From a virus: DNA of 64,000 nucleotides. A program made the translations under genes and the position numbers. Under the pieces are notes generated by a model. It saw nothing but the letters and a program-made list of their open reading frames with translations, did not search any database and was not told the origin of the DNA. The stretch covers positions 6,376 to 70,375 of IMG/VR virus record IMGVR_UViG_3300046616_000603. One strand, written 5' to 3'. This document shows positions 2,128 through 61,894 of this stretch, piece after piece. Positions within the stretch are counted from its first letter, which is position 1, and every line of letters begins with the position of its first letter.

Positions 2128-2134
2128 TCCTCCT

Positions 2135-4140: not shown

Positions 4141-4164
4141 GGTGTTCTCCGTGGTGGTTGGTGG

Positions 4165-6042: not shown

Positions 6043-6072
6043 GATCGTTTCCTTGTTCGTGTTGTTGGTGGA

Positions 6073-10234: not shown

Positions 10235-10937
10235 ATGAGCGCACCGCCACGCGGCCGGGAGTTGGCCGCAATTTACGCAGTGAGCGTATCAAACATCAAA
10301 CCCATCGAATGGGAGGGTGAGAACGTGATCACAACTGTAGCGCTTGCGAATGCTTACGGCGCATCAAGCTCCAACATTCACGATAACCACCGCAAGAACC
10401 GCGACCGGTTTGTGGAGGGAAGGCATTATCACAAGCTGACCGGCGATGAGTTGGCAGGAGACCGGAAATAATCCGGTCAGTCGTGCGCGCTCGATCATCC
10501 TCTGGACTGAACGCGGGGCCGCGCGGCATGCCAAGATGCTGGAGACGGACGCGGCCTGGGATGTGTTCGAGGCGCTGGAGGAGAATTACTTCCGCAACCC
10601 GCGCGCGCAAGCTGCAGCAACGGCAGGCGGCGAGCTGAGCACTGTGCAGGACCGCGAGCCACTGTTGGCCGCCGCCGTGCAGATGGTCGTGAAGCACAAG
10701 CTACCGTTCCACAAGGTCTATCAAACGATGAACTATTACGCCGGCGCTACGCACTTTGCCGATATGTCGAAGGACCAGGTCGGCGAGGCTGAGCGATTCG
10801 TAGAGCGCTTCCTGGTCGGACAGGATACGCGGGCCGACTGGCTGCGGATTGGCGCGAACCGCCAGGAGTTGACAGGCGATGATGCGCAGCCCGATCTGCT
10901 GGGTTTCGAGGTGCCGGGTACACTGGGCAAGCGATAG
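10235..10937 (+). pseudogene. ORF6N-domain antirepressor-like gene split by a +1 frameshift
   Basis: Frame A VITTVALANAYG...RDRFVEGRHYHKLTGDEL stops at 10471; frame B ARSIILWTERGAARHAKMLETDAAWDVFEALEENYF completes the domain. Confidence 0.75.
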
Positions 10938-17329: not shown

Positions 17330-17664
17330 CGCTCACGCTCCCGCGCGAGGATTCTCCTCGCTACCATCTGCTCGCCGCCTTGCGGCAAGGGCCTGGCACG
17401 TTCTATCAAGTCTGCGAGCGCGCGGGCATTGATATCGAAGACCAGCACGCCGAAGACAAGGCCCGCCTGAGCTTCGAGCGCTTGATCGGCGACTTCGTTC
17501 ACATGACCGGCGTCACCTATTCGTTGACCGCCGAGGCGCGCGAGTCGTTCGGAGAGATCAAGCCGACACCGTCTGCGGGCGAAATCGCCGGACCGGCATT
17601 CCGTGGCATTTACGATCCGCGCACCGTGTTCATCACCCGCCGTCCTGAAGGAGCGCGTGTATGA
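17326..17664 (+). CDS. Hypothetical phage protein
   Basis: 112 aa; ATGA-coupled at both ends. Confidence 0.6.
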   Translation: MTLTLPREDSPRYHLLAALRQGPGTFYQVCERAGIDIEDQHAEDKARLSFERLIGDFVHMTGVTYSLTAEARESFGEIKPTPSAGEIAGPAFRGIYDPRTVFITRRPEGARV

Positions 17665-20069
17665 AGCGCGACGACTTCACCTTTGACCTTCAGTTGGACG
17701 GCAGCGCTGAGACTGCGCGTGCGCCAACTGCTGCCCACCCACCAGCGCGCCGCACGCCGCGTGCGCCGAAAATCCGAATCAAGCTCCCGCAACTGGACCT
17801 CGGCCACGAGCTCATCATCGACAACTTCGCCGGTGGCGGTGGCACGAGCACAGGCTTGGAAGCGGCGTTCGGCCGACCGGTCGATATCGCTATCAATCAC
17901 GATCCCGAAGCGCTGGCCATGCACGCCATCAACCACCCGCACACGAAGCACCTGTGCGAAAGCGTGTGGGACGTCGATCCGATCAAGGTCACGAACAACC
18001 AGCCCGTCGCACTGGTCTGGCTGTCTCCGGACTGCAAGCACTTCAGCAAGGCCAAGGGCGGCACGCCCGTGTCGAAGAATATTCGCGGCCTTGCCTGGGT
18101 GACGCTGCGCTGGGCGGCGAAATGCAAGCCCCGGGTCATCATGCTGGAAAACGTCGAGGAGTTCAAAACGTGGGGACCGCTGATGCTGGATGCCGAGGGT
18201 AACTGGCGCCCTGACCCCGCGAAGAAGGGTAAGACCTTCGAGAGCTTCCTGCGCCAGCTGCGCGGCCACGGCTACACGGTCGATTACCGTGAGCTGCGCG
18301 CCAGCGACTACAACACGCCGACGATCCGTAAGCGCTTCTTCCTGGTGGCGCGCCGTGACGGCCTGCCGATCCAGTGGCCGGAAGCGACCAATGCCGCACC
18401 GACGTCGCAGGCCGTCGTCGCTGGCAAGCTCGCGCCGTGGCGCACGGCCGCCGAGTGCATCGACTGGTCGATCCCATGCCCCTCGATCTTCGAGCGCAAG
18501 CGCCCGCTGGCCGACGCCACGATGCGCCGCATCGCCAAGGGCATCATGCGCTACGTCGTCGACGCGGCCCAGCCGTTCATCGTAGGGCAGGGCGGCCCGA
18601 TCTACTCGGGCAAGCCGGTTTCTGCCGACCAGCCGTTCGGCACCATGACTACGGAAAATCACCGCGCCGTCGTCGTGCCCAGCATCGTACCTGTGACGCA
18701 CCAGGGTGCCGACCGAAGCGAATCCGTGCACGAGCCATTCCGTACCATCACCGGCGCGCAGCGTGGCGAGAAGGCGCTGGCCACCGCCACTATGGTGCAG
18801 GTCGGATATGGCGAACGCGCGGCTCGATACCGGTGCGGCGCCTGCGGCGAGGACTTCGAAGATAAGCACGCGACCGGCGCCGGCGGTCTTGCGCCTGCAG
18901 AGTGCCCGGCGTGCGGAGAGGAAGCGCGAATTACCCTGATTTCCGCTCCGCAGCAGCCGCGCGCGCTCGACATCGAGAAGCCGATGGGCACCGTTGTTGC
19001 GGGCGCCGGAAAGGCGGCGCTGGTGACGGCGTTCTTGAACGAGCACGCCAACTCCAGCAACCAGCGCACGATGCCCGCCGATGAGCCGCTGCGCACCATC
19101 TGCGCTCAGGTCAAGGGCGGCCACTTCAGCGCTGTGTCCGCCACACTGGTGGGCGTGGGCGGTCGCGCCGGTGATAGTCGCCCACGCAGCGCGGACGAAC
19201 CTGCCGCGACGGTCACGGCCAAAGGCGATACTGCGCTTGTAACCGCGCATATCCAGCGCGACATGGGTATGAGCGTGGGCCATCCGGCCGACGTGCCGAT
19301 GGGGACCGTCATGCCTGGCGGCGGTGGGAAGTCGGCGCTGGTCACGGCGCACATCACCAAGTTTCGCACAGGCGCGACCGGCAGCGACATGAACGAGCCC
19401 ATCCCAACTATCACCGCAGGACCGAAGGAAAATCCGGCCGGCGCGCCTCACGCATTGGGTATCGTGACCGCTCACATCGAGGCCATGTATTCGCAGAAGG
19501 GCGATGAATCTCGCGGCCAGGATGCGCGTGAGCCGATCAAGACCGTGACGGCAAGCGCCCGGCATGCGGTGATGACGAGCAGCCTTGTGAAGTTGCGGGG
19601 CACCAGCAGCACAGCGGGAATGGATGAACCGCTGCACACAGTCAGCGCTGGCGGCCAGCACCACACCGAGGTTCGCGCATTCCTGGTGAAGTACTACGGC
19701 ACCGACCAGGACCCGCGTCTTGAAGAGCCGCTGCACACCGTGACAACGAAGGACCGCTACGGACTGGTGACGATTCAGGGCGTGGACTACCAGATCGTCG
19801 ATATCGGCCTACGCATGTTGGAGCCGGCCGAGCTTTACCGCGCGCAGGGCTTCCCGGCCGACTACGTGATCAAGGAAATCCCGGACCCGGAACTGCTGTT
19901 CAAGGATGGGCACCAGGCCGACGGTGATCCCTTGCTGCTGCCGCGAGTGGCGCTGACGAAGTCGGCCCAGGTGCGCATGTGCGGCAACAGCGTCTGCCCG
20001 CCGCTGTCCGAGGCGCTGATCCGCGCCAACTTCACGCACGAGCGTGAGATGGGGATGGTGGCGGCGTGA
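17661..20069 (+). CDS. DNA (cytosine-5) methyltransferase with expanded repeat region
   Basis: Motif I DNFAGGGG, motif IV SPDCKHFS, motif VI MLENV, motif VIII TIRKRFF, motif X MCGNSV. Confidence 0.92.
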   Translation: MKRDDFTFDLQLDGSAETARAPTAAHPPARRTPRAPKIRIKLPQLDLGHELIIDNFAGGGGTSTGLEAAFGRPVDIAINHDPEALAMHAINHPHTKHLCESVWDVDPIKVTNNQPVALVWLSPDCKHFSKAKGGTPVSKNIRGLAWVTLRWAAKCKPRVIMLENVEEFKTWGPLMLDAEGNWRPDPAKKGKTFESFLRQLRGHGYTVDYRELRASDYNTPTIRKRFFLVARRDGLPIQWPEATNAAPTSQAVVAGKLAPWRTAAECIDWSIPCPSIFERKRPLADATMRRIAKGIMRYVVDAAQPFIVGQGGPIYSGKPVSADQPFGTMTTENHRAVVVPSIVPVTHQGADRSESVHEPFRTITGAQRGEKALATATMVQVGYGERAARYRCGACGEDFEDKHATGAGGLAPAECPACGEEARITLISAPQQPRALDIEKPMGTVVAGAGKAALVTAFLNEHANSSNQRTMPADEPLRTICAQVKGGHFSAVSATLVGVGGRAGDSRPRSADEPAATVTAKGDTALVTAHIQRDMGMSVGHPADVPMGTVMPGGGGKSALVTAHITKFRTGATGSDMNEPIPTITAGPKENPAGAPHALGIVTAHIEAMYSQKGDESRGQDAREPIKTVTASARHAVMTSSLVKLRGTSSTAGMDEPLHTVSAGGQHHTEVRAFLVKYYGTDQDPRLEEPLHTVTTKDRYGLVTIQGVDYQIVDIGLRMLEPAELYRAQGFPADYVIKEIPDPELLFKDGHQADGDPLLLPRVALTKSAQVRMCGNSVCPPLSEALIRANFTHEREMGMVAA

Positions 20070-20511: not shown

Positions 20512-20934
20512 ATGATCTATGACCTCTCCCGCGCGGAGCGCCAGCACCGCGCCATCCAAAACGAAAAGCCCGGCCCGGTTCACCAGGTGAAGCGCTGCGC
20601 ATGCGGCGCCAAAGTCACCGCGCGCCAACTGGGCCAGCACGGCAAGTGCGAGCACTGCCGCCTGACGGCCGGCCTCGCCGAAGGCGACCTCGACAAGCTG
20701 CGGCACATGCTCGGCGCAACGGCGCACGACTCGAAATCGCACTGGGGCTTCCGCAACCACTACCTGTGCAACGTCCAGGACCGCGCGGCGATGGAGCGCT
20801 TGGTTGCGGCCGGCCTGGCGCGCGCCGGCGAGCAGCTGCTGCGCACGCAGTATTTCCACGCGACGCGAGACGGCTTCCGCGCCGCAGGCCTTGATCGTGC
20901 CGGCATCGCCCGTGCGCTGGAGGCTGTACTGTGA
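20512..20934 (+). CDS. Hypothetical phage protein with Zn-finger-like N-terminus
   Basis: CACG...CEHC; LRHMLGA...WGFRNHY. Confidence 0.65.
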   Translation: MIYDLSRAERQHRAIQNEKPGPVHQVKRCACGAKVTARQLGQHGKCEHCRLTAGLAEGDLDKLRHMLGATAHDSKSHWGFRNHYLCNVQDRAAMERLVAAGLARAGEQLLRTQYFHATRDGFRAAGLDRAGIARALEAVL

Positions 20935-22160
20935 ATCAGGCCGATATCTTCGCAGTCGGCTCCACGCGGCTGCAGATGACTGACTCCATCGAGATGACGA
21001 TCCAGTCGCTGTTGGCCTACGGCGCTTCGCACGATCACTGGGGCATCGCCTGGTCGGGTGGCAAGGACAGCAGCGCCACGCTGACACTGGTGATGTGGCT
21101 GCTAGATACCGGCCGCGTGCCGCGCCCGAAGACCCTGACTGTGTTTTACGCGGACACGCGGCAGGAGCTGCTGCCGCTGGCGCACGCCGCTAGCCAGATC
21201 ATTGACGAGTTGCGCGAGCGCGGCATTCAGGTCGAGATCGTCATGGCGCCGATGGATAAGCGCTTCATGGTTTACATTCTCGGGCGCGGTGTGCCGCCGC
21301 CAAACAACAACACGCTGCGCTGGTGCACACGGCAAATCAAGATCGACCCAATGCAGCACGCGCTGGAACAGCGGCTGGCCGAGCTGGACGGCCAAGTGCT
21401 GATGATCACCGGCGTCCGCCAAGGTGAGAGCGCCATCCGCGACCAGCGCATCGAGATGAGCTGTAGCAAGGACGGAGCTGAATGCGGGCAGGGGTGGTAT
21501 CAAAAGGTGCTGCCCGAAGCGAAGGGCTTGCGCGGCCGACTCGCCACGTTGGCGCCGCTGCTGCACTGGCGCGTCTGCCACGTGTGGGAATGGCTGCGCC
21601 ACTGGGCGCCCGGTGCGGAGTTTGGCGACTGGAGCACGGCCGCTATCGCCGAGGCTTACGGCGGCGACGAGGCCGAAGAGATCAATGCGCGCACCGGCTG
21701 CACGGGTTGCCCGTTGGTCGACACCGATATGGCGCTGGACAACATCCTGACGAACCCGCGATGGGCCTACTTGGCACCACTCAAGCGCATCAAACCGCTG
21801 TGGCGAGAGCTGCGGTTGCCGCGGCACCGCCTTCGCAAAGCTGGGCTGGAGATCCTGAAAAGCGGAAAGGCTGCGGCAAATCCGCAGCGCATGGGACCGC
21901 TGACCTTTGAGGCGCGGCTGATGGGTTTGAGTACGATCCTCGCCATTCAGAACGAGGTGAACGATGCTGCGCGCGCCCAGCGCCGGCCAGAGGTGGACCT
22001 GATCAACCCCGAGGAAGAGGCGCGCATCCGCGAGTTGATCGCACTGGAGACCTGGCCGGACGGCTGGGATGGCGACGAACCTCTGGCTACGACCATTATG
22101 GATACGGTCTACGCCAATGGCGCCGTGCAGCCGCTGTTGTTCTCGGAGGCTGATTCGTGA
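20931..22160 (+). CDS. PAPS-reductase family protein (DndC-like)
   Basis: PP-loop WSGGKDSS, RWCTRQIKIDP, GVRQGESAIRD, RTGCTGCP. Confidence 0.88.
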   Translation: MNQADIFAVGSTRLQMTDSIEMTIQSLLAYGASHDHWGIAWSGGKDSSATLTLVMWLLDTGRVPRPKTLTVFYADTRQELLPLAHAASQIIDELRERGIQVEIVMAPMDKRFMVYILGRGVPPPNNNTLRWCTRQIKIDPMQHALEQRLAELDGQVLMITGVRQGESAIRDQRIEMSCSKDGAECGQGWYQKVLPEAKGLRGRLATLAPLLHWRVCHVWEWLRHWAPGAEFGDWSTAAIAEAYGGDEAEEINARTGCTGCPLVDTDMALDNILTNPRWAYLAPLKRIKPLWRELRLPRHRLRKAGLEILKSGKAAANPQRMGPLTFEARLMGLSTILAIQNEVNDAARAQRRPEVDLINPEEEARIRELIALETWPDGWDGDEPLATTIMDTVYANGAVQPLLFSEADS

Positions 22161-23308: not shown

Positions 23309-25948
23309 ATGAGCGCTTTTAGCCCTGAAGAACAAAAACTGCTGGTGCAGGCCGAGTATGGCCAGTTCCTGCGCGAGAAAATCAAGCTGGCGCCGCGCCG
23401 TGGCTTCAACGTGCCACTGGCCGAGATCAATCCGGCGCTCAAGCCGCACACGCGCGACATGGTGCGCTGGGCGCTCGCCGGTGGCCAGCGCGCGATATTC
23501 GCCAGCTTTGGCTTGCATAAGACCGCCACCAACCTCGAAATCATGCGCCTCATCGGCATCCATCGCCCTGGCCTGCGTCTGATCGTGCTGCCGCTGGGAG
23601 TGCGCCAGGAGTTCGTGCGCGAGGCGCGCCAGCGCTTCACCGGCGAGTATGCTATGAAGTTGCAGTTCATCCGGTCCACGGCCGAGATGGTCGACCCGGA
23701 CGTCATCTACCTCACGAACTATGAGACCGTCCGCGACGGCAAGATCGACGTGACGCGGTGCCGCGCGGTGGCGCTGGACGAGGCGGCCGTGCTGCGCAGC
23801 TACGGCAGCAAGACCTTTCAAGAGTTCCTGCCGATGTTCGAGTCGGTCGAATTCAAGTTCGTGTTCACAGCCACGCCGAGCCCCAACCGCTTGAAGGAGC
23901 TGATCCACTATGCCGGCTTCCTGGGCACTATGGATACTGGTGAGGCGCTTACTCGCTTTTTCCAGCGAGACAGCGAAAAGGCCGGCAACCTGACGCTGTA
24001 TCCCCATAAGATCCGGGAATTTTGGCTGTGGGTAGCCAGTTGGGCGCTGTACCTTCAGAAGCCGAGCGACCTGGGCCACTCGGACGAGGGCTATGTGCTG
24101 CCGCCGCTCGACCTGCAGGTGCACGAGGTGGCCAGCAACTACGAGGCCGCCGGCAACGAGAAGAACGGGCAGGGGCTGCTGATCCCAAACGTCGCGATGG
24201 GCCTGTCGGCCGCTGCCGGCGAGAAGCGCGAGAGCTTGCTCGACCGTGTTGCGAAGGTGGTCGATCTGCTGCGCGGTCGGCCCGCCGGCGCACAGGCCAT
24301 CGTCTGGTGTGACCTGAACGACGAGCAGCGCGCGCTGGAGAAGGCTATCGCGGCCGAGGGCTGGACCGTCTCTTCGCTGGACGGCAGCCAAGATCAGGAC
24401 CTCCGCGAGCAGCTGATGGACGATTGGCGTGAGCGCCGAACCGATATCTTCCTGTCCAAGCCGGTGATGTACGGCGCCGGCCCGAACCTGCAGCAGTGCC
24501 AGCTGATGATCTTCGCCGGCATCGGCTTCAAGTTTGCAGACTTCATCCAGGCCGCCCACCGGATCTACCGCTTCGGCCAGGCCGGCACCTGCAGCGTGCA
24601 TCTGATCCACACCGAAGTAGAGCGCGCGGTGCTGGCCATCCTGATGGAGAAATGGCGCCTGCACGACGACGCCGTGGCTATGATGGGCGAGATCATCCGA
24701 GAATACGGGTTGGACCAGCTGCAAATGCAGGACACGCTCGCGCGCACCATCGGCGTGCAGCGCCAGGTCGCCGTCGGAGAGCACTTCACGGTGGCGAACA
24801 ACGACTGTGTTCTGGAAGCGCTGGAGCAGCCGGACAATTCTGTTGGCATGATCCTGACGTCGATTCCATTTGGGAACCAGTACGAATACAGCCCGAGCTA
24901 CAACGACTTCGGCCACACCGTGGACAATGACCAGTTCTGGCGGCAGATGGACTTTCTGACGCCGCAGCTGCTGCGCATCCTCCAGCCAGGCCGCATCTAC
25001 GCCTGCCACGTCAAGGACCGGATCCTGTTCGGCAACGTCACTGGCGCCGGCGTTCCGACGGTCAGCCCTTTCCACGCCGAGGCGATCTTCCACGCCCAGA
25101 AGCATGGCTTCGACTACATGGGCATGATCACGGTGGTGACCGACGTGGTGCGCGAGAATAACCAGACCTACCGCCTGGGCTACTCCGAGGTGTGCAAGGA
25201 CGGTACGAAGATGGGTGTAGGCATGCCAGAGTACATCCTGTTGTTCCACAAGCCACAATCCGATCGCTCGCGCGGCTACGCCGACGTGCCGGTGACCAAG
25301 CAGAAGCCGCTGTGCATCGACGACGCCGGCACCGCCGTGTCGTTCGATCGCAAGCTGGCGCCGATCCCCGGCACCGGCTACAGCGTGGCGCGCTGGCAGG
25401 TCGACGCCCACGCCTTCTGGCGCTCAAGCGGCAACCGCCTGCTGGGTGCGGCAGAGCTGGCCGCCTATGGGCCCGGCAAGCTGGCCAAGCTGTTCACCGA
25501 GCTGTCGCTGACCAATGTCTACGACTACGAGCTGCACGTCGCGACCGGCGAGCATATGCTGGCCGCCAACGCGCTGCCGGCCACCTACATGAGCCTCGCA
25601 CCGGGCAGTAGCGATCCGATGGTCTGGCATGACATCGTCCGCATGCGCACCTTGAACGGCGAGCAGTCGGCGCGCGCGGTCGAGAACCATGTATGTCCGT
25701 TCCAGATCGATATCGTGGACCGCTTGATCAATCGCTACACGAATAAGGGTGACATCGTCTACGACCCGTTCCACGGCCTCGGTACCGTCGGCGTGCGCTC
25801 GGTCAAGCTGGGCCGCCGAGGCGCCGGTTCGGAATTGAACGCCGGCTACTTCCGCGACCAGGTGCACTACTTGCAGCTGATGGAGCGCGAGGTCAGCATG
25901 CCCACGCTGTTCGATCTGGCCGCGCTGGATCAGGAGAACGCATCGTGA
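23309..25948 (+). CDS. SNF2-like helicase fused to an N4/N6 DNA methyltransferase
   Basis: FGLHKT, LDEA, TATPSPN, QAAHRIYRFGQ; TSIPF catalytic motif and YDPFHGLGT SAM motif. Confidence 0.88.
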   Translation: MSAFSPEEQKLLVQAEYGQFLREKIKLAPRRGFNVPLAEINPALKPHTRDMVRWALAGGQRAIFASFGLHKTATNLEIMRLIGIHRPGLRLIVLPLGVRQEFVREARQRFTGEYAMKLQFIRSTAEMVDPDVIYLTNYETVRDGKIDVTRCRAVALDEAAVLRSYGSKTFQEFLPMFESVEFKFVFTATPSPNRLKELIHYAGFLGTMDTGEALTRFFQRDSEKAGNLTLYPHKIREFWLWVASWALYLQKPSDLGHSDEGYVLPPLDLQVHEVASNYEAAGNEKNGQGLLIPNVAMGLSAAAGEKRESLLDRVAKVVDLLRGRPAGAQAIVWCDLNDEQRALEKAIAAEGWTVSSLDGSQDQDLREQLMDDWRERRTDIFLSKPVMYGAGPNLQQCQLMIFAGIGFKFADFIQAAHRIYRFGQAGTCSVHLIHTEVERAVLAILMEKWRLHDDAVAMMGEIIREYGLDQLQMQDTLARTIGVQRQVAVGEHFTVANNDCVLEALEQPDNSVGMILTSIPFGNQYEYSPSYNDFGHTVDNDQFWRQMDFLTPQLLRILQPGRIYACHVKDRILFGNVTGAGVPTVSPFHAEAIFHAQKHGFDYMGMITVVTDVVRENNQTYRLGYSEVCKDGTKMGVGMPEYILLFHKPQSDRSRGYADVPVTKQKPLCIDDAGTAVSFDRKLAPIPGTGYSVARWQVDAHAFWRSSGNRLLGAAELAAYGPGKLAKLFTELSLTNVYDYELHVATGEHMLAANALPATYMSLAPGSSDPMVWHDIVRMRTLNGEQSARAVENHVCPFQIDIVDRLINRYTNKGDIVYDPFHGLGTVGVRSVKLGRRGAGSELNAGYFRDQVHYLQLMEREVSMPTLFDLAALDQENAS

Positions 25949-27842: not shown

Positions 27843-28264
27843 GCAAGTCGAAGAAACCACGCAAGGCCTACCGGCAGAAACCGGCGGTCCTTCCGTTCGG
27901 CATGCGCCGGCAGGTGCAGATGGAAATGCCCGGCTACCAGGCCATGATCGCGTTGGGCATGGACCACCTGCAGGAACAGCACATCTACGACCTGCTGTCG
28001 GCTGCGGACCTCGCGAAGCGCACGGCGCCGGCCGGGCACGCGATCATCGACGTTGCGCACAGCATGGTGCTGGCCTGCGCGGAGATCCAGCACCGCGCTC
28101 AGCGCGTCGGCAAGACAGGTGCCAGCGGCGACGAAATGCATCTGCTCAAGGCAGGCCTGCCGCAGCTGATGGATTTCCTGCGCACGGTATCGAACTTCGA
28201 TATTGCGCGGGCGGCTGCAGCGGCAGTCGCAGAGTTCGATCGCAACGGCGTACTGCGCGTATGA
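27839..28264 (+). CDS. Hypothetical phage protein
   Basis: MSKSKKPRKAYRQKP; ATGA-coupled. Confidence 0.7.
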   Translation: MSKSKKPRKAYRQKPAVLPFGMRRQVQMEMPGYQAMIALGMDHLQEQHIYDLLSAADLAKRTAPAGHAIIDVAHSMVLACAEIQHRAQRVGKTGASGDEMHLLKAGLPQLMDFLRTVSNFDIARAAAAAVAEFDRNGVLRV

Positions 28265-28338
28265 CACCACGCGCACGTGGCCTAGCGAAACACAAAAGAC
28301 TGTGTTAACGTCCAGCTACACACCAAGGAGTACACCAC

Positions 28339-28890
28339 ATGGGCTTTGCTGACCGATACCTGCACGCCGTAAATTCGTCCGACTTGCGCGATGATGAACA
28401 TCACCACGCCACCGACGCGCTGTGCGCGGCCGCGCTGGCCGACACCACCGGCGCCGGTATTGGATCGCTTCTTTCGCGCGTAAAGTACGCCGACGGCACT
28501 CAGCACAAGCTGTTCGAATCGGGTAGTGCCAACCTGGGCAGCCTGTTGCGCATCTGGACCGCGCGCGTGATCGTCAAGGGACGCGAGCGCAAGTGGGTGA
28601 AGGAGGGCACCGCGTGGGACGCGCAGGCCGCCCAGGCGCTGTACCGCCGCGTTGCCGAGCGCTCGCTGGCCTACTGGCTGGACGGGAAGTGCCCGGCGTG
28701 CAGCGGCAGCGGCAACACTGCCGACCGCCGTATCTGCGTTCCTTGCAGAGGCACCGGCAAGGCGGAGATCTCCGGCGCCGGAGGCTTCGAACTGGAGAGG
28801 GTCAAGGACATGGTGTCCGAACTGGAAGGTCTGCTTCAATCGCATAATACTCGCGCTTCGGTAATGCTGCGCAACAGCCAAGGAGCTTGA
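28339..28890 (+). CDS. Q-like late antiterminator with Zn finger
   Basis: CPACSGSG...CVPCRGTG; last early gene; AAGGAG RBS. Confidence 0.75.
   Translation: MGFADRYLHAVNSSDLRDDEHHHATDALCAAALADTTGAGIGSLLSRVKYADGTQHKLFESGSANLGSLLRIWTARVIVKGRERKWVKEGTAWDAQAAQALYRRVAERSLAYWLDGKCPACSGSGNTADRRICVPCRGTGKAEISGAGGFELERVKDMVSELEGLLQSHNTRASVMLRNSQGA
28795..28872 (+). repeat. Q 3'-end repeat, copy 1 (in the intact gene)
   Basis: Encodes ERVKDMVSELEGLLQSHNTRASVMLR. Confidence 0.85.
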
Positions 28891-28933
28891 TCCACATCAA
28901 ACGGCGCGCGCACCGGTCTGGTAATCTGCGCTG

Positions 28934-29104
28934 ATGGACTACAGGACGAAAGCAATGTGCCGGGTGGCTCTGGACTTGGCAAGGATGCATGGGCTTCAGT
29001 TCGCTGCGGCGTTTCTGGCGGAGAACCACGTTTCGATCGAGGTCGCTCTCTTTGTCCTCGTGAGACGAGAGACCGGAGGCGCATATAGTCGTGCTATCGT
29101 TTGA
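28934..29104 (+). CDS. Small hypothetical protein (56 aa)
   Basis: MDYRTKAMCRVALDLARMHGLQFAAAFLAENHVSIEVALFVL; directly before the recombinase. Confidence 0.5.
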   Translation: MDYRTKAMCRVALDLARMHGLQFAAAFLAENHVSIEVALFVLVRRETGGAYSRAIV

Positions 29105-29132
29105 AGGTATGGGTAACTGATTGAGGTGCGCC

Positions 29133-30671
29133 ATGCCATCAAGCAAGTCTACGGGCAGCGCCCGCGCGTTGGTTGGTAGGAAGGCTGCTTCCTACCTTCG
29201 AATGTCATCGGATGGGCAGGCGGGTTCAATCGCCAACCAGCGGGCGGCCATCGCCGCGTACGCGCGCCGCCACCGCATAGAGGTCGTCTCCGAGTACTCA
29301 GACCCCGGGAAGAGCGGGCTGGGGATAAAAGGGCGGCCAGGTCTGCAGCGGTTATTGGCTGATGTCACCAGTAAGGACGTCGAGTACCACGTAATCCTGG
29401 TGTACGACGTCAGCCGATGGGGACGGTTTCAAGATGTAGACGAAAGCGCACACTACGAGTTCCTCTGTCGGAACGCCGGGATCGACGTGGTTTATTGTGC
29501 GGAAGAATTCGATAACGACGGCTCCGCGATAGCAGCAATCGTGAAGACGATGAAGCGCGCAATGGCAGCTGAGTACAGTCGCGCCCTGTCCGTGAAGGTG
29601 TTCGAGGCACAGACACGCCTTGCTCGGTCGGGATTCAAGCAAGGTGGGCCGGCAGGATATGGTTTGCGCCGCGCCTCGGTTGGGCCAGACGGCGAAATTC
29701 GTAGGGTCCTGGTGGCCGGAGATCGGAAAGGCGCGCCGGCCGACCACGTCATTTTCGTGTGGGGCCCGAGTCACGAGGTGGCCATTGTGCGCCAGATCTA
29801 TGACTGGTACGTGAGCGGCGAGAAGGGCGACACTGCGATCGCCGCAGAACTAAACGCCCGTGGCATCACTTCGGAATCCGGCCGGACGTGGACCCCGCCG
29901 GTTGTGGTTAGCATCTTGACGAACGAGAAGTACATCGGCACCGTGGTGTACAACCGCAAATCATACAAGCTGCAGGGCGTGGTCTGCGACAATCCGCGCC
30001 AAGCATGGATCAGGAAGCCGAAAGCCTTTCCGGCCTTGATCGATTCGGCAGTTTTTCACCGCGCGCAGGAGATTCGCCGCGAGCGCGCGGAGCGCTACAC
30101 GCGGCAGGAGTTGTTGGATATCCTGCGGCGCATCTATTCGGAACACGGCAAAATCTCGACGAAGCTGATCGATGAGTATCCGGACGGTCCACACCACAAT
30201 GCGTTCCTGAACCGTTTCCAGACGCTCAGCAACGCATACCGTCTGGCAGGCGTGCCGGCCACGCAACGGGCCGATCGTTACCTGGACAGCTTACGCAAGA
30301 CCGAGACTATCCGTAATGACGCGATGGCAAAGGTCAAAGAATGTGTGGCAGCCGCTGGCGGTACGTTTGATCCGCTGCCGTCGAAGAACACCTTCGTTTT
30401 GAACGGCGCCGCACACACACGGTTGCTTGTCGTCCGGGCGCGCCGCAATCGCGAGGACCGGCCGTACCGTTGGAGCTTTCCCCTACGCGAGGTCGCAGGA
30501 ATACATTTCATTATTGCAATCCAACTTGAGCCATCAAACTCGGCTGTGCGCGGTTTGTATCTTTTACCAGTTGACGTTGTTCGCTATCCCACACTTGTCA
30601 TGCGCGAGGAACGTCCTGACGAGTTCGCGAGGTGTCGCTATTGTTCGATTGATGCTCTATTCGGGACCTGA
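29133..30671 (+). CDS. Large serine recombinase family protein
   Basis: YLRMSSDGQ catalytic Ser, YSDPGKSG, YDVSRWGRFQ, MAAEYSRALS, GGPAGYG, ILTNEKYIG. Confidence 0.9.
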   Translation: MPSSKSTGSARALVGRKAASYLRMSSDGQAGSIANQRAAIAAYARRHRIEVVSEYSDPGKSGLGIKGRPGLQRLLADVTSKDVEYHVILVYDVSRWGRFQDVDESAHYEFLCRNAGIDVVYCAEEFDNDGSAIAAIVKTMKRAMAAEYSRALSVKVFEAQTRLARSGFKQGGPAGYGLRRASVGPDGEIRRVLVAGDRKGAPADHVIFVWGPSHEVAIVRQIYDWYVSGEKGDTAIAAELNARGITSESGRTWTPPVVVSILTNEKYIGTVVYNRKSYKLQGVVCDNPRQAWIRKPKAFPALIDSAVFHRAQEIRRERAERYTRQELLDILRRIYSEHGKISTKLIDEYPDGPHHNAFLNRFQTLSNAYRLAGVPATQRADRYLDSLRKTETIRNDAMAKVKECVAAAGGTFDPLPSKNTFVLNGAAHTRLLVVRARRNREDRPYRWSFPLREVAGIHFIIAIQLEPSNSAVRGLYLLPVDVVRYPTLVMREERPDEFARCRYCSIDALFGT

Positions 30672-30747
30672 GCGCGTGCTGGACATGGTGTCCGGGCTGG
30701 AAGGCCTGCTCCAATCGCACAACGCACGTGCAGGAATTATGCCTCGG
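30670..30747 (+). repeat. Q 3'-end repeat, copy 2 (orphan)
   Basis: ERVLDMVSGLEGLLQSHNARAGIMPR; hand count 55/78 nt and 20/26 aa identical to copy 1. Confidence 0.85.
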
Positions 30748-30902
30748 GGCGTGACTGGAGTTTGAGGTGCCAACAGATACCGCGCTGGCATTCTCGCCGA
30801 GGGACCAGATTGTGCCGAGCTGTAGAAGTGGGCTACCTAAAAGCGGAAAGGTGCTACGATTGTTCAGGCAGCGAGCCCAAGCTACCGCAGCACCCCGGCT
30901 AA

Positions 30903-31652
30903 TCATTTCCCCATCGTGTAGGTGTAAATTACCGTTATAGCCAAGCGATTTTTTTCTTTATAGCGGATCGCATTCTCGCCAGTAGGTAGTGGCTGATTTG
31001 CCTTAATGCCGTCTCCAAGTTCTTTCGAATACGGTTCAACTGAGAGGCCGATACCGAGGTTGTGGGTCGACTTATCGCCATCATTCGGTTTGAAAGCGAC
31101 GAGCCATCCCAGCGTTACTGAATCCATTAGCTTTTTATCGCCGAATAGACTGGCACCGACGAACACACCCTGACGGAAGTGCAGGTTATCAAATCGCTCG
31201 GTGAAGTACCAGTGCCGCTCCAGCATCAATCGAGGGACGACATCACGTTCGCTGGAAACGCGCACCACGCCGTTGACGAGCTGCGCCTCTTCAATTGCTG
31301 ATCCGCGTTTGCCTAGCTTCGTGGATACTGCCAATCCGACACCGAAATTGTTCCAAAATTCATCGTTTTTCGATGCATTGCCATTTGCCTCATCGGCAGC
31401 TGCTTTTGCCTTCGCTGCTTTTTCTTTCGCGGCTGCAGCTGCTTTTTCCGTGTCGGCTGCTGCTTTGTCTGCATCCTCCACTTTCTTTTTTGCCAACTCG
31501 GCTTTTTGGGCCTTAAGGGCGTCGATAGTTTTTTGAGCCTCTTCAATTTGTTTGTCGATCGCAGCACCATCGGCTGGAGCGGCGCCTTGTTGTTGTGCAG
31601 ATGCGCCTGCAGAAAGTAGGCACATTGCTGTGATGATCACAAAGTTTTTCAT
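30903..31652 (-). CDS. Secreted/outer-membrane-like cargo protein
   Basis: Signal peptide MKNFVIITAMCLLSAGASA; Ala/Lys coiled coil; amphipathic beta-rich C-terminus; low GC. Confidence 0.8.
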   Translation of the reverse strand: MKNFVIITAMCLLSAGASAQQQGAAPADGAAIDKQIEEAQKTIDALKAQKAELAKKKVEDADKAAADTEKAAAAAKEKAAKAKAAADEANGNASKNDEFWNNFGVGLAVSTKLGKRGSAIEEAQLVNGVVRVSSERDVVPRLMLERHWYFTERFDNLHFRQGVFVGASLFGDKKLMDSVTLGWLVAFKPNDGDKSTHNLGIGLSVEPYSKELGDGIKANQPLPTGENAIRYKEKNRLAITVIYTYTMGK

Positions 31653-31846
31653 ATACCCCCTAGTTATCAATTGTAATTTATGAAACTATAAGGTAATTAT
31701 CGAAAAAGAATATGTCAATAATAATTGTTAATTTGAAACCACGGCGCAACAAATTGCAAATTGATAGTGCCGCGTCTGACGTCTCTAGCCCAGATCGGAG
31801 GGCATGGTCAAATAGCTCAATTTTTACTCTATCTAAGTCGATACAG

Positions 31847-31875
31847 TTGACTTACCAATCGGAGTACGTTAACGT
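31847..31875 (+). promoter_or_regulatory. Putative late promoter pR'
   Basis: TTGACT-N17-TAACGT about 140 nt before a strong terminator. Confidence 0.55.
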
Positions 31876-32012
31876 CCGTCCAACACACTCACCGCACTCG
31901 TAATGCAGGCTTATAGCCTCACCGATAGCAGTGATTCGAGGCTAGCACCGATCCTTTGATGCTTTCGCTCGCGTGTACCGCTCACTTCGCAGATAGCGCT
32001 GGAGCACCAACG

Positions 32013-32036
32013 AAGCCACCCTTGCGGTGGCTTTTT
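32013..32036 (+). terminator. tR'-like intrinsic terminator
   Basis: AAGCCACC-CTTGC-GGTGGCTTTTT. Confidence 0.8.
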
Positions 32037-32065
32037 CTATTTCCGCGCCTGTTTGCGAGGCCGCT

Positions 32066-32209
32066 ATGCCGAGTACCCCGACTTCCGCCGACTACCTCGC
32101 CCGGATCCGCTGGGTGCGGATGTGCATGGCGCTGCTCGCGATGCAGGACGACATGGCCGCCGCGCGGGAAGCTGCCGCAGCGCTGCCGCGCAAGCCTGCA
32201 CGCTGGTAG
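32066..32209 (+). CDS. Small hypothetical protein (47 aa)
   Basis: GAGG RBS; MPSTPTSADYLARIRWVRMCMALLAM. Confidence 0.4.
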   Translation: MPSTPTSADYLARIRWVRMCMALLAMQDDMAAAREAAAALPRKPARW

Positions 32210-32479
32210 GCCGCACTAAGCCGGCCGCCAAGGAGGTGTATCATGAAGTAGCAAAGCCCTAAGCCTCACCGCCAGTCGCCAATTCGGCGCGCTGCCGGCG
32301 TAGAAGCGCGACGTGACGCGCACGGGTCAAAAATCGGCTGATGAGTTTCGGAGCACCCGCCCGGAGATACTCAGGGGACGCCGCAAAGGCAAACATTTTA
32401 GACAGAGTACCCAGCCGGGCGCCGCCTTCGGGCCGCGTGCCAGATCGGCCGCCAGGACGCTGTAACCCGGCACCTAATT

Positions 32480-32646
32480 CTAGTGACCCGCTACATTGCG
32501 CGGTTTGACAGCGCGCCAACGGCGGGATAGCAACGTAGAAAGTGACAACCATCAAAAGGTTCACTCACCGACGAGTTACCTTGGTTGTACGGGCCCTCGA
32601 CAATGTCGAGAAATAGGTTCTAGCCAGCACTTCATATAGTGTTGGA
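32480..32646 (+). ncRNA. Candidate multibranch structured RNA upstream of the tRNA
   Basis: Nested stems read by eye: CTAG.GACC/GGTT.CTAG, CCCG/CGGG, CTACATTGC/GCAACGTAG, ACAACCA/TGGTTGT, CTCGAC/GTCGAG, then CCAGCACT/AGTGTTGG. Confidence 0.45.
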
Positions 32647-32649
32647 CGT

Positions 32650-32725
32650 GCCGTCATAGCTCAGGTGGAAGAGCGGCTGCCTTGTAAGCAGCGGGTCCAG
32701 GGTTCGAATCCTTGTGATGGCACCA
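32650..32725 (+). tRNA. tRNA-Thr (anticodon TGT)
   Basis: 76 nt; acceptor GCCGTCA/TGATGGC; anticodon arm GCTGC-CTTGTAA-GCAGC; GGTTCGAATCC; encoded CCA. Confidence 0.95.
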
Positions 32726-32756
32726 CATTTCCCAGTTCAGCCCCTGCTGTACGTTT

Positions 32757-32786
32757 GCCGCTGCTTTCACGCAGCGGTTTTTTTTT
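32757..32786 (+). terminator. Intrinsic terminator after the tRNA
   Basis: GCCGCTGC-TTTCAC-GCAGCGGT plus T run. Confidence 0.8.
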
Positions 32787-32796
32787 GAGGTGATGC

Positions 32797-32901
32797 ATGA
32801 GTCTACTCGCCATCATGATGATCCTGTGGGGCGTTGAACGCCCCGCGCCGGTGCCGCGCGCACCACGCGAACCGAACAAGGCCGCCTGGCCATACAAGTA
32901 A
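32797..32901 (+). CDS. Small hydrophobic peptide (34 aa)
   Basis: GAGGTG RBS; MSLLAIMMILWGVERPAPVPRAPREPNKAAWPYK. Confidence 0.45.
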   Translation: MSLLAIMMILWGVERPAPVPRAPREPNKAAWPYK

Positions 32902-32910
32902 CGTGCTGCT

Positions 32911-33037
32911 GCCGCCCATCGCGCTCCAGCGGGCGGGCACTAAAAGCGGGCGCAGATCGCTGACGAAACATGGCCGGGTGGTCCGGCCGGCGGGCGTGCT
33001 GCAATGCGCCCCGAGGTTCCAGCTCGGAGCGGGCGGC
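32911..33037 (+). ncRNA. Candidate multibranch structured RNA
   Basis: Closing stem GCCGCC..CGCTCC/GGAGCG.GGCGGC; arms CAGCG/CGCTG, GGCCGG/CCGGCC, GGGCGT/GCGCCC, CCGAG-GTTCCAG-CTCGG. Confidence 0.45.
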
Positions 33038-33055
33038 GACACTAAAAGGAACCTC

Positions 33056-33355
33056 ATGGAAATCGAACTGACCGAAACGAAGACCTACTCGTTCAAGCTG
33101 GGTGATAAGACATTGGCCAACTTCGCCATCGTGTCAGAGTGGAACGGTTTCACCGAGTTGCGCCACCCCGGTGGTGATCGGATGATCGTGCATGGCATGG
33201 CCAGTGCGTCGTCGCCGGGGTTTATGGATCTTTGGGGCGACATTTTCGGATCGCGCACCGGCATCGAGAAGGCACCGCTGCGCGTACGAATCGTCACTGC
33301 GAGCCCCGACATCATCGAAATCTTCGAAGCCGTGCGGGCAGTGCCGGCGCCATGA
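33056..33355 (+). CDS. Hypothetical protein
   Basis: AAGGA RBS; 99 aa; coupled to next gene. Confidence 0.6.
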   Translation: MEIELTETKTYSFKLGDKTLANFAIVSEWNGFTELRHPGGDRMIVHGMASASSPGFMDLWGDIFGSRTGIEKAPLRVRIVTASPDIIEIFEAVRAVPAP

Positions 33356-33597
33356 ACAAGCACCAGCACCCATCCAACAACGACGTGCTGGGCGCACCGG
33401 TCGGCTGGAATCAGGGCGACCTGACCTGCGCCGCGCTGCCGATCACCCGCGCCAAGTTCGGCGACATGGAGGCGGTGGTTTCGTACTGGCGCCCGAGCGC
33501 AGAAGAGCTGGCGGTACTGAACGCCGGCGGCAGCGTCGAGTTGGCCATCCTCGGTCGCACGATCCCGCCGGTGATGCTATCGGTCGACCCGCAGTAG
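33352..33597 (+). CDS. Hypothetical phage protein
   Basis: LGAPVGW...CAALPI...VVSYWRPSAEELAVLNAGG. Confidence 0.7.
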   Translation: MNKHQHPSNNDVLGAPVGWNQGDLTCAALPITRAKFGDMEAVVSYWRPSAEELAVLNAGGSVELAILGRTIPPVMLSVDPQ

Positions 33598-33598
33598 C

Positions 33599-34243
33599 AT
33601 GGTAAAGAAGTCCGCTGCACCTGGTGCTGGCCGCCCGGTGCCGCCGGCCGTGTTCGCTGACCCGTTGAACTGCCGCTTCGCTCCCGCGCCTGAAGTACTC
33701 GCCTGGGCCCGGGCCGAGATCCTCACCGAGGGTGGCCAGCTGCACAACGACGATCACGCGCACCTGGAATACGCCGACGTGCAGTTCCTCTGGGCGCCCG
33801 GCAGCTTCCAAAAGCAAGGCCGCACCGTCATCGGGCAGTGCGAAGAAATGACCTTCCGTTGCGGCCCGTGGCAGAAGGGCCGCCAGCAACAGCAGATGGC
33901 CGACTGGTTCGGCCGCGTGCCGGATTACCTGATCACGCTGGACGCGAGCTACTGCCTCACGTGCACGGACGCCGAGTTCTGCGCTCTGGTGGAGCATGAG
34001 CTCTATCACATCGGCCAGGAGCAGGACATCTTCGGCAGCCCGGCCTTTACCAAGGACGGCATGCCGAAGCTGATGATTCGCGGCCACGACGTCGAAGAAT
34101 TTGTCGGTGTGGTCCGCCGCTACGGAATAGGTCATCCCGAAGGCACGCTGGCCCAACTGGTCGCCGCCGCAAACGCCGCCCCAGAGGTGGCAAAGATCAA
34201 CATAGCGAGGGCGTGCGGTACCTGTCTGCTGAAGGCGGCTTGA
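33599..34243 (+). CDS. Putative phage metallopeptidase
   Basis: ALVEHELYHIG and GHDVEEFVGVVRRYG. Confidence 0.85.
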   Translation: MVKKSAAPGAGRPVPPAVFADPLNCRFAPAPEVLAWARAEILTEGGQLHNDDHAHLEYADVQFLWAPGSFQKQGRTVIGQCEEMTFRCGPWQKGRQQQQMADWFGRVPDYLITLDASYCLTCTDAEFCALVEHELYHIGQEQDIFGSPAFTKDGMPKLMIRGHDVEEFVGVVRRYGIGHPEGTLAQLVAAANAAPEVAKINIARACGTCLLKAA

Positions 34244-61878: not shown

Positions 61879-61894
61879 TTTATTCGAGGAAATA

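What the first reader, a model, noticed from the sequence alone, without database searches (positions are those of the whole stretch)
28795..30747. Serine recombinase bracketed by duplicated 3' ends of the Q antiterminator gene
Seen: a 26-codon stretch near the end of Q (28795-28872) recurs at 30670-30747 (hand count 55/78 nt, 20/26 aa, many differences synonymous). The second copy starts exactly at the recombinase stop codon. Between the copies lie a 56-aa ORF and a large serine recombinase. Known: integrative elements often restore their target gene with a replacement 3' end and displace the original. Inference: this may be a small element that targets phage Q genes and swaps the Q C-terminus, or a recombination-driven cargo hotspot between Q and pR'. 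Excision would change the Q C-terminal allele, which could modulate late-gene expression.
Basis: partly seen in the sequence, partly recalled or inferred. Interest (0 to 1): 0.72.

Follow-up and report, generated by a model that had tools for sequence, protein, structure and literature searches.

The report
Mini serine-recombinase element in phage regulator gene
A 1.9-kb two-gene unit (a small protein plus a large serine recombinase) sits inside the 3' end of a prophage's putative late-gene regulator, brings its own copy of the gene's tail and pushes the old tail aside, and related phages show that this looks like a tiny mobile element that lives in phage genomes.

Summary
Window 28795-28890 and 30670-30765 are two copies of the 3' end of a 183-aa gene (55/78 nt, 20/26 aa). 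They bracket a 56-aa ORF and a 516-aa serine recombinase (SR) whose stop codon overlaps the start of the second copy.

Comparative data favour a small site-specific integrative element of 1875 bp (28815-30689).
- An independent metagenome locus (L133) has the same architecture. Its element-side junction is letter-identical to the window's and its displaced tail differs.
- A second SR clade sits at the same site in the opposite orientation. In two records it forms tandem 1.86-kb units, each followed by a tail.
- SR-free relatives (L039, L027) look like empty sites.
- SR and the small ORF are under purifying selection.

Caveats:
- The "Q" label has no sequence support. It rests on position: the gene lies directly upstream of a conserved promoter-like, structured leader and terminator segment.
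- 7 of 12 fully visible SR-bearing loci lack a displaced tail.
- Only 1 of 30 genome Q loci carries the module.
- No circle or excision junction could be tested.
- The idea that excision tunes late expression has no support.

Verdict: new variant of a known kind, interest about 0.6.

The parts
28339..28890 (+). Target gene: 183-aa 'Q-positioned' protein with two CxxCxGxG zinc knuckles, intact and full length.
   Evidence: ORF. 46 viral relatives and 344 protein relatives, all named hypothetical, from Duganella, Janthinobacterium and Rugamonas. No hit to a known Q family.
28807..28819 (+). attL core: 13-nt block identical to 30682-30694. Its first 8 nt (codons D157-M158-V159) are the most likely crossover region.
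   Evidence: One search gives the coordinates. One search shows GAYATGGT in the aligned functional Q alleles. One search shows M158, V159 and S160 invariant and D157 at least 90% conserved. The crossover position is inferred.
28815..28890 (+). Replacement tail, inferred to be element-borne. It completes the gene.
   Evidence: The tail type '...SVMLRN..G.' and the sequence after the stop continue into orf56. They are shared by L003 and L133, which carry the same element, and not by SR-free loci.
28934..29104 (+). orf56: 56-aa protein of an unnamed family, found upstream of the recombinase in all element types.
   Evidence: dN/dS 0.12-0.24. No Pfam hit. A role as directionality factor or regulator is inferred only.
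29121..30671 (+). 516-aa serine recombinase: catalytic and recombinase domains of the large serine recombinases, plus a different C-terminal domain.
   Evidence: Pfam and PHROG integrase phrog_95, E 1.6e-59. The YxRMS motif with S29 is invariant in 9 sequences and at least 90% conserved in 43. AF2 model pLDDT 79.7. Foldseek matches serine integrase structures at E 1.5e-14 over about 315 columns only. dN/dS 0.06-0.11.
30669..30694 (+). Element right end and attR: recombinase stop, a 10-nt Q-like arm between the stop and the core, and the 13-nt core.
   Evidence: This stretch is letter-identical in the window and L133 up to the end of GACATGGT. After that the two displaced tails diverge.
30670..30765 (+). 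Displaced original tail, non-functional.
   Evidence: It is closer to the native tail of SR-free L012 (85.7% over 63 nt) than to tail 1 (77.4% over 62 nt). It carries E161G and L177P at conserved columns.
28815..30689 (+). The inferred element as a whole, 1875 bp.
   Evidence: Spacing of the two cores. Unit sizes of about 1.86 kb in the tandem arrays of L034 and L035.
31845..32044 (+). Context: conserved segment R (TTGACT at 31847, structured leader, intrinsic terminator at 32012-32044). In minimal relatives it starts at the stop codon of the target gene.

Best explanation
The 1875 bp from 28815 to 30689 are a minimal site-specific integrative element that lives inside temperate phages of Oxalobacteraceae. 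It encodes only a small protein (orf56) and an atypical large serine recombinase.

Its attachment site mimics the 3' end of a conserved phage gene: a zinc-knuckle protein that sits where lambda's Q sits. Recombination at or next to the conserved codons D-M-V (GAYATGGT) joins the element's own copy of the gene's last 25 codons to the phage gene. The gene therefore stays intact, and the original tail is left as a dead copy just behind the recombinase stop codon.

Shown: the anatomy; recurrence at the same site in two recombinase clades and two orientations; tandem units; empty-site relatives; purifying selection on both genes.

Inferred: the recombinase made the insertion; the crossover lies in the 8-nt core; the element can still excise as a circle and enter the same gene of other phages; orf56 helps or controls this.
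For: - Same element, different background. L133 (a 1.26-Mb metagenome contig) has gene, tail, orf56 (96% aa), SR (89% aa) and a second tail. The element-side junction is identical in L133 and the window up to the end of GACATGGT. After that the displaced tails differ, and similarity between the two loci falls to 0.23-0.45 beyond about 30710.
- Second clade, opposite orientation. A second SR clade (about 43% identity) lies right after the same gene on the other strand in L029, L031, L034-L038 and G100. Its stop codon sits inside the last codons of the gene's tail on the antisense strand, so that tail must travel with the recombinase.
- Tandem units. L034 and L035 carry two tandem units of about 1.86 kb, each followed by a tail copy.
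- Empty sites. The last tail of L034 has the ELESLL signature of the SR-free loci L039 and L027. The DNA behind it (10308-10546) matches the DNA behind the intact gene in L039 (6600-6838).
- Tail 2 looks native and decayed. It is nearer to a native tail (L012, 85.7%) than to tail 1 (77.4%) and has changes at two conserved columns.
- Both genes are maintained. dN/dS is 0.06-0.11 for SR and 0.12-0.24 for orf56. The catalytic serine motif is conserved.
- Relatives behave as integrases. The nearest chromosomal relative (L053, 57%) lies beside a truncated ComEC N-terminal gene.
- The prophage has its own integrase. A tyrosine integrase lies at its left end.
Against: - No excision product could be looked for in reads: only assembled contigs were on hand.
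- 7 of 12 fully visible module-bearing loci have no displaced tail. These are L009, L010, L029, L031, L036, L037 and G100. L003 and L007 end inside the SR gene and cannot be judged. In L009 and L010 the recombinase stop overlaps the TTGACA of segment R instead.
- In L010 the module is bracketed by copies of R, not by tails.
- orf56-like genes also occur without a recombinase, behind R, in L013 and L033.
- The window-L133 identity profile peaks over 28610-29570, which does not follow the element's ends. This shows homologous exchange.
- The module is rare outside IMG/VR. Only 1 of 30 Q loci fetched from 401 genomes of the family has the module. By my reading of the tables, only 1 of 54 SR matches in those genomes lies beside the gene.
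- Several SR-bearing viral records come from similar metagenome series and may not be independent.
- No dyad symmetry above background was found around the core.
- The recombinase lacks the zinc-ribbon and coiled-coil part that controls direction in studied integrases.
Confidence: 0.62

Rival explanations
1. The orf56-SR pair is an ordinary accessory module of the variable region between the regulator gene and the late promoter-like segment R. It is passed between phages by homologous recombination in the conserved flanks. The duplicated tail stems from one or two old illegitimate or unequal crossovers and was later reshuffled, not from recombinase-made insertions.
For: The gene-to-R interval is a cargo hotspot. 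In different loci R lies from 14 nt (L006, L012) to more than 3 kb behind the gene. The OMP-like gene 30903-31670 is there in L016 without any SR. 7 of 12 fully visible module-bearing loci lack a displaced tail. Mosaic identity does not follow the element's ends. Solo orf56-like genes occur in L013 and L033. Prevalence in species-representative genomes is low.
Against: It needs at least two independent illegitimate joins, one for the forward type and one for the reverse type. Both would have to start the tail copy within about 15 nt of each other, 12 and 27 nt before the same 8-nt core. It does not explain why the element-side arm imitates the gene's sequence, why the units are complete and of equal size in tandem, or why the window and L133 share the junction to the letter but differ right after the core.
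Confidence: 0.25
2. The recombinase serves the phage itself: as a second integrase for entry into a resident prophage's copy of the gene, or as a site-specific engine that exchanges early and late halves between related phages at the regulator/late boundary. On this view the tail copies are the footprints of such phage-phage recombination.
For: The core lies in all aligned alleles of the gene, at the early/late boundary. A further decayed tail with 'cargo (-) then R-like copy' lies at the right end of the record (63043-63126). A related record (L012/L014) has a second full-length copy of the gene near its right end. L024 has a 588-nt repeat, including the gene's first 300 nt, around a 5-kb SR-bearing segment.
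Against: The third tail's homology runs on upstream of the core (Q residues about 133-178, decayed), so its breakpoint is not at the att core. Units of 1.86 kb in tandem fit a small circle better than whole-genome joins. The prophage has a tyrosine integrase at its end.
Confidence: 0.07
3. A programmed switch: excision swaps the regulator's C-terminal allele and thereby tunes late gene expression.
For: Excision would indeed exchange the last 25 codons (inference from anatomy). In L133 the displaced tail keeps the conserved residues.
Against: The part of the tail that differs (after HNxRA) varies in length and sequence across the 47 alleles aligned. The window's displaced tail has E161G and L177P at conserved columns. 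Many loci have lost the second tail altogether. Excision would also remove the recombinase, so the switch could not be reversed without re-entry.
Confidence: 0.04

Closest known systems
Helper-embedded PICIs (Tommasini, Mageeney & Williams 2023, PMC10111431; abstract, passages and section 'Attachment sites' read)
   Same: Mobile elements nested inside genes of lambdoid prophages. An integrase clade has a repeated tropism for phage genes. The paper states that attP can carry a replacement sequence so that the target gene stays functional.
   Different: Those use tyrosine integrases only, by the paper's own words. They are full satellites with replication and captured late genes, and they interrupt late genes until they excise. 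Here the recombinase is a serine recombinase, the element has two genes and 1.9 kb, and the target is the 3' end of a regulator-positioned gene that stays intact.
Gene-intervening elements with large serine recombinases in spore formers (SPbeta SprA/SprB; gin GirC/GirX, Abe et al. 2017, PMC5595907; abstract and sections 5 and 8 read; SPbeta papers seen as search listings only)
   Same: A large serine recombinase plus a very small partner protein (GirX is 42 aa) sits inside a coding gene. Site-specific recombination occurs at a short shared core (9 bp in gin).
   Different: Those split the host gene and restore it only by excision. gin has 31 genes. The hosts are Firmicutes chromosomes. Here the gene is kept whole by a replacement tail and the host is a phage genome.
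Integration into tRNA or icd genes with a replacement 3' end (tyrosine integrases; established knowledge, also stated in PMC10111431 section 19)
   Same: attP carries a copy of the target's 3' end, and the original 3' end is displaced.
   Different: Different recombinase family. The targets are cellular genes.
Phage large serine integrases (phiC31, Bxb1 and others)
   Same: The catalytic and recombinase domains match by Pfam and by fold (Foldseek E 1e-11 to 1.5e-14).
   Different: No zinc-ribbon or coiled-coil domain was detected. The C-terminal 190 residues form another, beta-rich domain. The carried DNA is the recombinase's own 1.9-kb unit, not a phage.
IS607-family elements (recalled; NCBIfam weak hit E 7.8e-7 to the catalytic part)
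   Same: About 2-kb elements moved by a serine recombinase alone.
   Different: IS607 transposases are small serine recombinases with an N-terminal DNA-binding domain and loose target choice (recalled). Here the enzyme has the large-recombinase domain and one specific target, which it restores.

Membership tests
Large serine recombinases | N-terminal resolvase-type catalytic domain with the nucleophilic serine | tested here: met
   PF00239, E 5.7e-23. The YxRMS motif with S29 is invariant in 9 sequences and at least 90% conserved in 43.
Large serine recombinases | Recombinase domain (PF07508) after the long helix | tested here: met
   PF07508, E 1.4e-20. Foldseek matches serine integrase structures over about 315 columns, E 1.5e-14.
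Large serine recombinases | Zinc-ribbon domain with embedded coiled coil | tested here: not met
   No such Pfam hit at E <= 0.001. Foldseek alignments stop after about 315 columns. The model shows a helical then beta-rich C-terminal part at pLDDT of about 90. A divergent form is not excluded.
Large serine recombinases | Short attP/attB with a central dinucleotide; integration without host factors | not testable with these tools
   Only a shared 13-nt block is seen. There is no dyad symmetry above background.
Site-specific integrative element | Presence/absence polymorphism with matching flanks (empty site) | tested here: met
   L039 and L027 versus L034. For the window's own type only more distant SR-free relatives are on hand (L006, L012, L016).
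Site-specific integrative element | Same junction in different genomic backgrounds | tested here: met
   Window versus L133. Only these two complete forward-type copies were found. An exact search for the junction arm in IMG/VR found no more.
Site-specific integrative element | Excised circle or restored target detectable | not testable with these tools
   Only assembled contigs of 4 runs were available.
Lambda-type Q antiterminators (PF03589, PF06530 and relatives) | Sequence membership in a Q family | tested here: not met
   No Q family in Pfam, PHROGs, NCBIfam or the PDB for the protein or its profile. 0 of 20 family members and 0 of 59 distant relatives hit one. The only link is an Atlas lead: a neighbouring cluster in which 11% of members carry PF03589.
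Lambda-type Q antiterminators (PF03589, PF06530 and relatives) | Gene directly upstream of a late promoter that is followed by a short terminated leader | tested here: met
   In L006 and L012 the stop codon overlaps TTGACA of segment R. R has a conserved leader with compensatory changes, and a hairpin plus U-tract terminator in 25 of 26 copies. Terminase genes follow. That this mirrors lambda pR'-tR' is recalled knowledge.
Lambda-type Q antiterminators (PF03589, PF06530 and relatives) | Fold and antitermination activity | tested here: inconclusive
   The AF2 model had pLDDT 53.9, too poor to compare. Activity is not testable here.
Recombination directionality factor (orf56) | Small protein encoded next to the recombinase that binds it and switches direction | tested here: inconclusive
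   Co-occurrence with the SR holds in forward, reverse and some chromosomal contexts. No family hit. Binding is not established.

The most novel reading that the evidence does not exclude
This recombinase family may be a dedicated engine of phage mosaicism. By recombining the conserved D-M-V core in the regulator genes of two co-resident phages, it would join or swap whole early and late halves at the module boundary. The 1.9-kb unit would be the selfish core of that system, spreading from phage to phage as a cargo-free parasite of phages. Its atypical recombinase, which lacks the zinc-ribbon and coiled-coil part, would work in both directions with orf56 as its only helper.
Probability: 0.1. 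Interest if true: 0.85.

Novelty: new variant of a known kind. Interest (0 to 1): 0.6.

Why it matters
Elements that live inside phage genomes are mostly known as homing endonuclease genes, introns, insertion sequences and, recently, satellites embedded in late genes.

A two-gene, cargo-free serine-recombinase element would be a new, very small kind of phage hitchhiker. It targets a conserved codon block in the gene next to the late promoter and repairs its target with its own tail. That would help explain why this junction is so variable.

The recombinase is compact in its needs, with a candidate att region of a few tens of bases. It lacks the usual direction-control domain, which makes it a candidate for study as a site-specific tool.

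The target family itself would be worth testing as a new type of late regulator. It is a zinc-knuckle protein of unknown family placed exactly like Q, before a promoter-like, structured leader and terminator unit.

Tried and rejected
- **Sequencing runs.** 5 runs hold part of the stretch, and the 4 laid were all Logan contigs. No joint between about 28.8 kb and 30.7 kb was listed. Contigs cannot show rare excision, so this says nothing either way.
- **orf56 + SR complex prediction.** Verdict 'no answer' (score 0.01, mark 0.32). This is not evidence for or against binding.
- **AF2 model of the Q-like protein.** pLDDT 53.9, so no fold search was made with it.
- **Dyad symmetry around the core.** Best scores were 8-11 of 20 against a background mean of 5.3, sd 2.1, max 14. 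Not informative.
- **Exact search for the element's right arm in IMG/VR.** 0 hits. A motif of the reverse-type arm found only the three records already known.
- **Rfam on 28000-33600.** Only the tRNA was found. Segment R is not a described RNA family.
- **Phage GenBank collection, blastn.** Only tRNA matches. There is no described phage relative of this region.
- **Is the SR the prophage's own integrase?** Rejected. It lies in the middle of the phage between early and late genes, and a tyrosine integrase lies at the left end of the record.
- **Does the third tail (63043-63126) mark a 34-kb element?** Rejected. Its homology to the gene extends upstream of the core, in decayed form.
- **Is the OMP-like gene 30903-31670 cargo of the element?** Rejected. 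It lies beyond the displaced tail, and a homologue sits in SR-free L016.
- **Do bracketing repeats hold for the wider SR family?** Of 78 genome loci tested, only L055 (552 nt) and L087 (94 nt) have clear direct repeats. 0 of 80 have the Q-like gene nearby.
- **Literature searches.** They listed no paper on a serine-recombinase mini-element in a phage regulator gene. The library is partial and supplements were closed, so this is weak evidence of absence.
Full report
**Setting**

The window is bases 6376-70375 of a 70,375-base IMG/VR provirus record, at 61% G+C. It is a lambdoid-style prophage with this gene order:
- an early-left operon on the minus strand (RdgC, YqaJ-like, RecT);
- an S24 repressor (13405-14151);
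- antirepressor, methylases, DUF1376 and DnaC-like replication genes;
- a 141-aa ORF and the 183-aa gene in question (28339-28890);
- a variable stretch;
- metallopeptidase, DUF2280 small terminase, large terminase, portal, coat, tail genes and a lysozyme.

A tyrosine integrase lies at the left end of the record, outside the window. Relatives of the 183-aa protein come from Duganella, Pseudoduganella, Janthinobacterium and Rugamonas and are all named hypothetical. The runs that hold this DNA are labelled rhizosphere metagenomes.

**The observation**

It holds exactly as described.
- Identity is 55 of 78 bases and 20 of 26 residues. Differences fall mostly at third codon positions (5/4/14).
- There is no homology in the 90 nt upstream (20 of 90).
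- A local blastn of the two flanks of the recombinase gene gives E = 1.7e-10.
- The recombinase stop (30669-30671) overlaps the first codon of the second copy.
- A 13-nt block is identical in both copies (28807-28819 and 30682-30694), 1875 bp apart.

**What the genes are**

The 516-aa protein:
- It has the resolvase catalytic domain and the recombinase domain of large serine recombinases and matches PHROG integrases.
- Its serine motif is conserved.
- A model at pLDDT 79.7 matches solved serine integrases over about 315 columns (E 1.5e-14).
- Its last 190 residues form another, confidently modelled helical plus beta-rich domain. No zinc-ribbon or coiled-coil part was detected.

orf56:
- It belongs to a small unnamed family with a conserved 45-residue core.
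- It is found upstream of the recombinase in every element type, and next to related recombinases in three Oxalobacteraceae genomes and two other viral records.

Both genes are under purifying selection: dN/dS is 0.06-0.11 for SR and 0.12-0.24 for orf56.

**Is the target gene Q?**

There is no sequence evidence for it.
- Pfam, PHROGs, NCBIfam and the PDB give only the CxxCxGxG zinc knuckle.
- 0 of 59 distant relatives found by a profile search over 1.84 billion proteins hit a Q family.
- The fold model was too poor to use.
- One weak lead exists: an Atlas neighbour cluster in which 11% of members carry PF03589.

The anatomy, however, fits a Q-like role.
- A segment R (window 31845-32044) is conserved at 75-90% in most related loci.
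- R starts with TTGAC(T/A). It carries a leader with compensatory base changes and ends in a hairpin plus U-tract in 25 of 26 copies.
- In the most compact relatives (L006, L012) the stop codon of the 183-aa gene lies inside that TTGACA.
- Terminase genes follow.

That this mirrors lambda's Q-pR'-tR' is my recollection of textbook knowledge. I therefore call the gene Q-positioned, not Q.

**Recurrence**

Of 46 viral loci with the gene:
- 11 have a related recombinase within 2 kb downstream: L003, L007 (a fragment at the contig end), L009, L010, L029, L031 and L034-L038.
- 2 have one about 1.6 kb upstream (L024, L040).
- 33 have none in the DNA held. A few of those are cut short, such as L014 and L048.

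Two more cases were found elsewhere. A metagenome scan with the recombinase added L133. A genome scan added G100.

Seen from the other side:
- Of the best 80 recombinase relatives in IMG/VR, 10 lie beside the gene, all in records already seen.
- Of the best 80 in one-genome-per-species contigs, none does.
- In 401 genomes of the family, 36 have the gene and 39 have the recombinase family. By my reading of the two tables, only G100 has them adjacent. 1 of the 30 fetched gene loci shows it.

So the association is real for the sub-clades near the window's enzyme, not for the whole, very widespread family. A FastTree of 111 sequences, midpoint-rooted with support not examined, puts all gene-adjacent recombinases in one superclade together with chromosomal Oxalobacteraceae ones.

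**Evidence for site-specific insertion**

- *Window versus L133.* Both have gene, tail, orf56, SR and a second tail. The stretch from the recombinase stop to the end of GACATGGT is identical in both. The displaced tails then diverge at once, and the loci are unrelated further on until R.
- *Reverse type.* The recombinase is on the other strand, and its stop lies within the last codons of the gene's tail (21-nt overlap in L034). That tail therefore belongs to the recombinase unit. All such tails share an unusual Ser at a column that is Ala in at least 90% of alleles.
- *Tandem units.* L034 and L035 have two units of about 1.86 kb in tandem. Each ends with the same arm (about 27 nt imitating the gene) and a tail.
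- *Empty sites.* The last tail resembles the tail of SR-free L039 and L027. The DNA behind it matches the DNA behind the intact gene there.
- *The window's tail 2.* It is closer to a native tail (L012, 85.7% over 63 nt) than to tail 1 (77.4% over 62 nt). It has E161G and L177P at conserved columns.
- *The core.* It is fixed by the codons D157, M158 and V159, which are invariant or nearly so. This gives a constant target in an otherwise variable gene.

**Evidence that tempers this**

- Of the 12 module-bearing loci that can be judged, 5 have a displaced tail: the window, L133, L034, L035 and L038. The other 7 have none: L009, L010, L029, L031, L036, L037 and G100. L003 and L007 end inside the SR gene and cannot be judged.
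- In L029, L036, L037 and G100 the unit runs straight into R.
- In L009 and L010 the recombinase stop overlaps R's TTGACA exactly as the gene's stop does in compact phages.
- In L010 the unit is bracketed by a terminator-less 142-nt copy of R and a full R.
- L013 and L033 have orf56-like genes behind R without a recombinase.
- The window-L133 identity profile is highest (0.92-0.98) over 28610-29570, which ignores the element's ends.

These facts show that homologous exchange and deletion act on the region. They also show that many copies have lost one att site and are fixed. They keep the hotspot rival alive at about 0.25.

**Mechanism proposed**

In the forward type the unit lies downstream of the gene and co-oriented with it, so early-right transcription after induction would read into orf56 and SR (inference). 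The recombinase would then excise the 1875-bp unit as a circle whose attP spans its own 3' end, the core and the replacement tail. It could enter the same core in the gene of a co-resident or co-infecting phage (inference). The unit is then carried from cell to cell inside the phage genome. Whether orf56 is a directionality factor or a regulator is open.

**Comparison and novelty**

Three ingredients are known:
- nesting of mobile elements in prophage genes (helper-embedded PICIs, with tyrosine integrases; PMC10111431, abstract, passages and section 19 read);
- target restoration by attP-borne 3' ends (same paper, and textbook knowledge for tRNA and icd);
- large serine recombinases with tiny partner proteins inside coding genes (gin GirC/GirX; PMC5595907, abstract and sections 5 and 8 read).

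The combination here looks new: a two-gene, cargo-free unit, a serine recombinase without the usual C-terminal domain, a phage regulator-positioned gene as target, a replacement tail, two orientations and tandem arrays. It was not listed by four literature searches. Supplements were closed and the library is partial.

I rate it a new variant of a known kind, interest about 0.6.

Noticed in passing
window 62989-63126 (+), with 61865-62569 and 63260-64000: A third, decayed 3' fragment of the Q-positioned gene (residues about 133-178, 54% identity) lies near the right end of the record. It is preceded by a 234-aa ORF; in a related record (L014) the homologue of that ORF precedes a full-length second copy of the gene. 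It is followed by a minus-strand ORF with an HELGH motif and a poly-Gly stretch. One assembled contig also shows an 88%-like copy of 31915-32170 (segment R) about 700 bp beyond the window's end. Together these look like the remnant of a second 'gene, cargo, R' junction from a neighbouring or decayed prophage.
   Followed up: partly
window 62807-62865 and L002 67-125: A 59-nt match (84.7%) links the right end of the window to the 5' region of the tyrosine integrase ORF at the left end of the record. It may be a prophage att repeat or the start of a second integrase gene.
   Followed up: no
window 31845-32044: Segment R is conserved across many related phages. It has TTGACT, a leader of about 150 nt with compensatory changes in a hairpin, and an intrinsic terminator (32012-32044). 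It is not in Rfam. It is a candidate late promoter and leader on which the 183-aa protein could act.
   Followed up: partly
window 30903-31670 (-): A low-GC (48%) gene for a 255-aa secreted, Ala/Lys-rich protein with a beta-rich C-terminal half lies between the displaced tail and R. A homologue is in L016 at the same place without a recombinase. It is probably an independent moron.
   Followed up: partly
window 32650-32725 (+): A tRNA-Thr (TGT) lies between R and the late genes, followed by a terminator-like hairpin at 32757-32778.
   Followed up: no
L211 (G399:C1), gene split at about residue 128: In one genome the Q-positioned gene is split between its two zinc knuckles by about 935 nt of other DNA. 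This is a different kind of interruption, at a different site.
   Followed up: partly
L024 147-723 and 5715-6301: A 588-nt direct repeat (78.7%) includes the first 300 nt of the gene. It brackets a 5-kb segment that holds a related recombinase on the minus strand. This may be a larger element that replaces the gene's 5' part.
   Followed up: partly
L053 (Duganella aquatilis contig) 1640-6548: The nearest chromosomal relative of the recombinase (57%) has an orf56-like gene and a second, divergent recombinase. It lies next to a 273-aa ORF that is only the N-terminal DUF4131 part of ComEC, which suggests an island inserted in comEC.
   Followed up: partly
loci L056-L132 and L219-L295: A large clade of about 40-42% identical recombinases has very short branches across distant taxa (Paraburkholderia, Acinetobacter, Rhodobacterales, Planctomycetota and others). 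Members are often in tandem pairs 36-120 nt apart, and in viral records often near contig ends. This suggests a very mobile, widely spread element family.
   Followed up: no
window 17661-20069, 20931-22160, 23309-25948: Three large early-region genes: an 802-aa C5 cytosine methylase fusion, a 409-aa PAPS-reductase-domain protein, and an 879-aa helicase plus N6/N4 methylase fusion.
   Followed up: no
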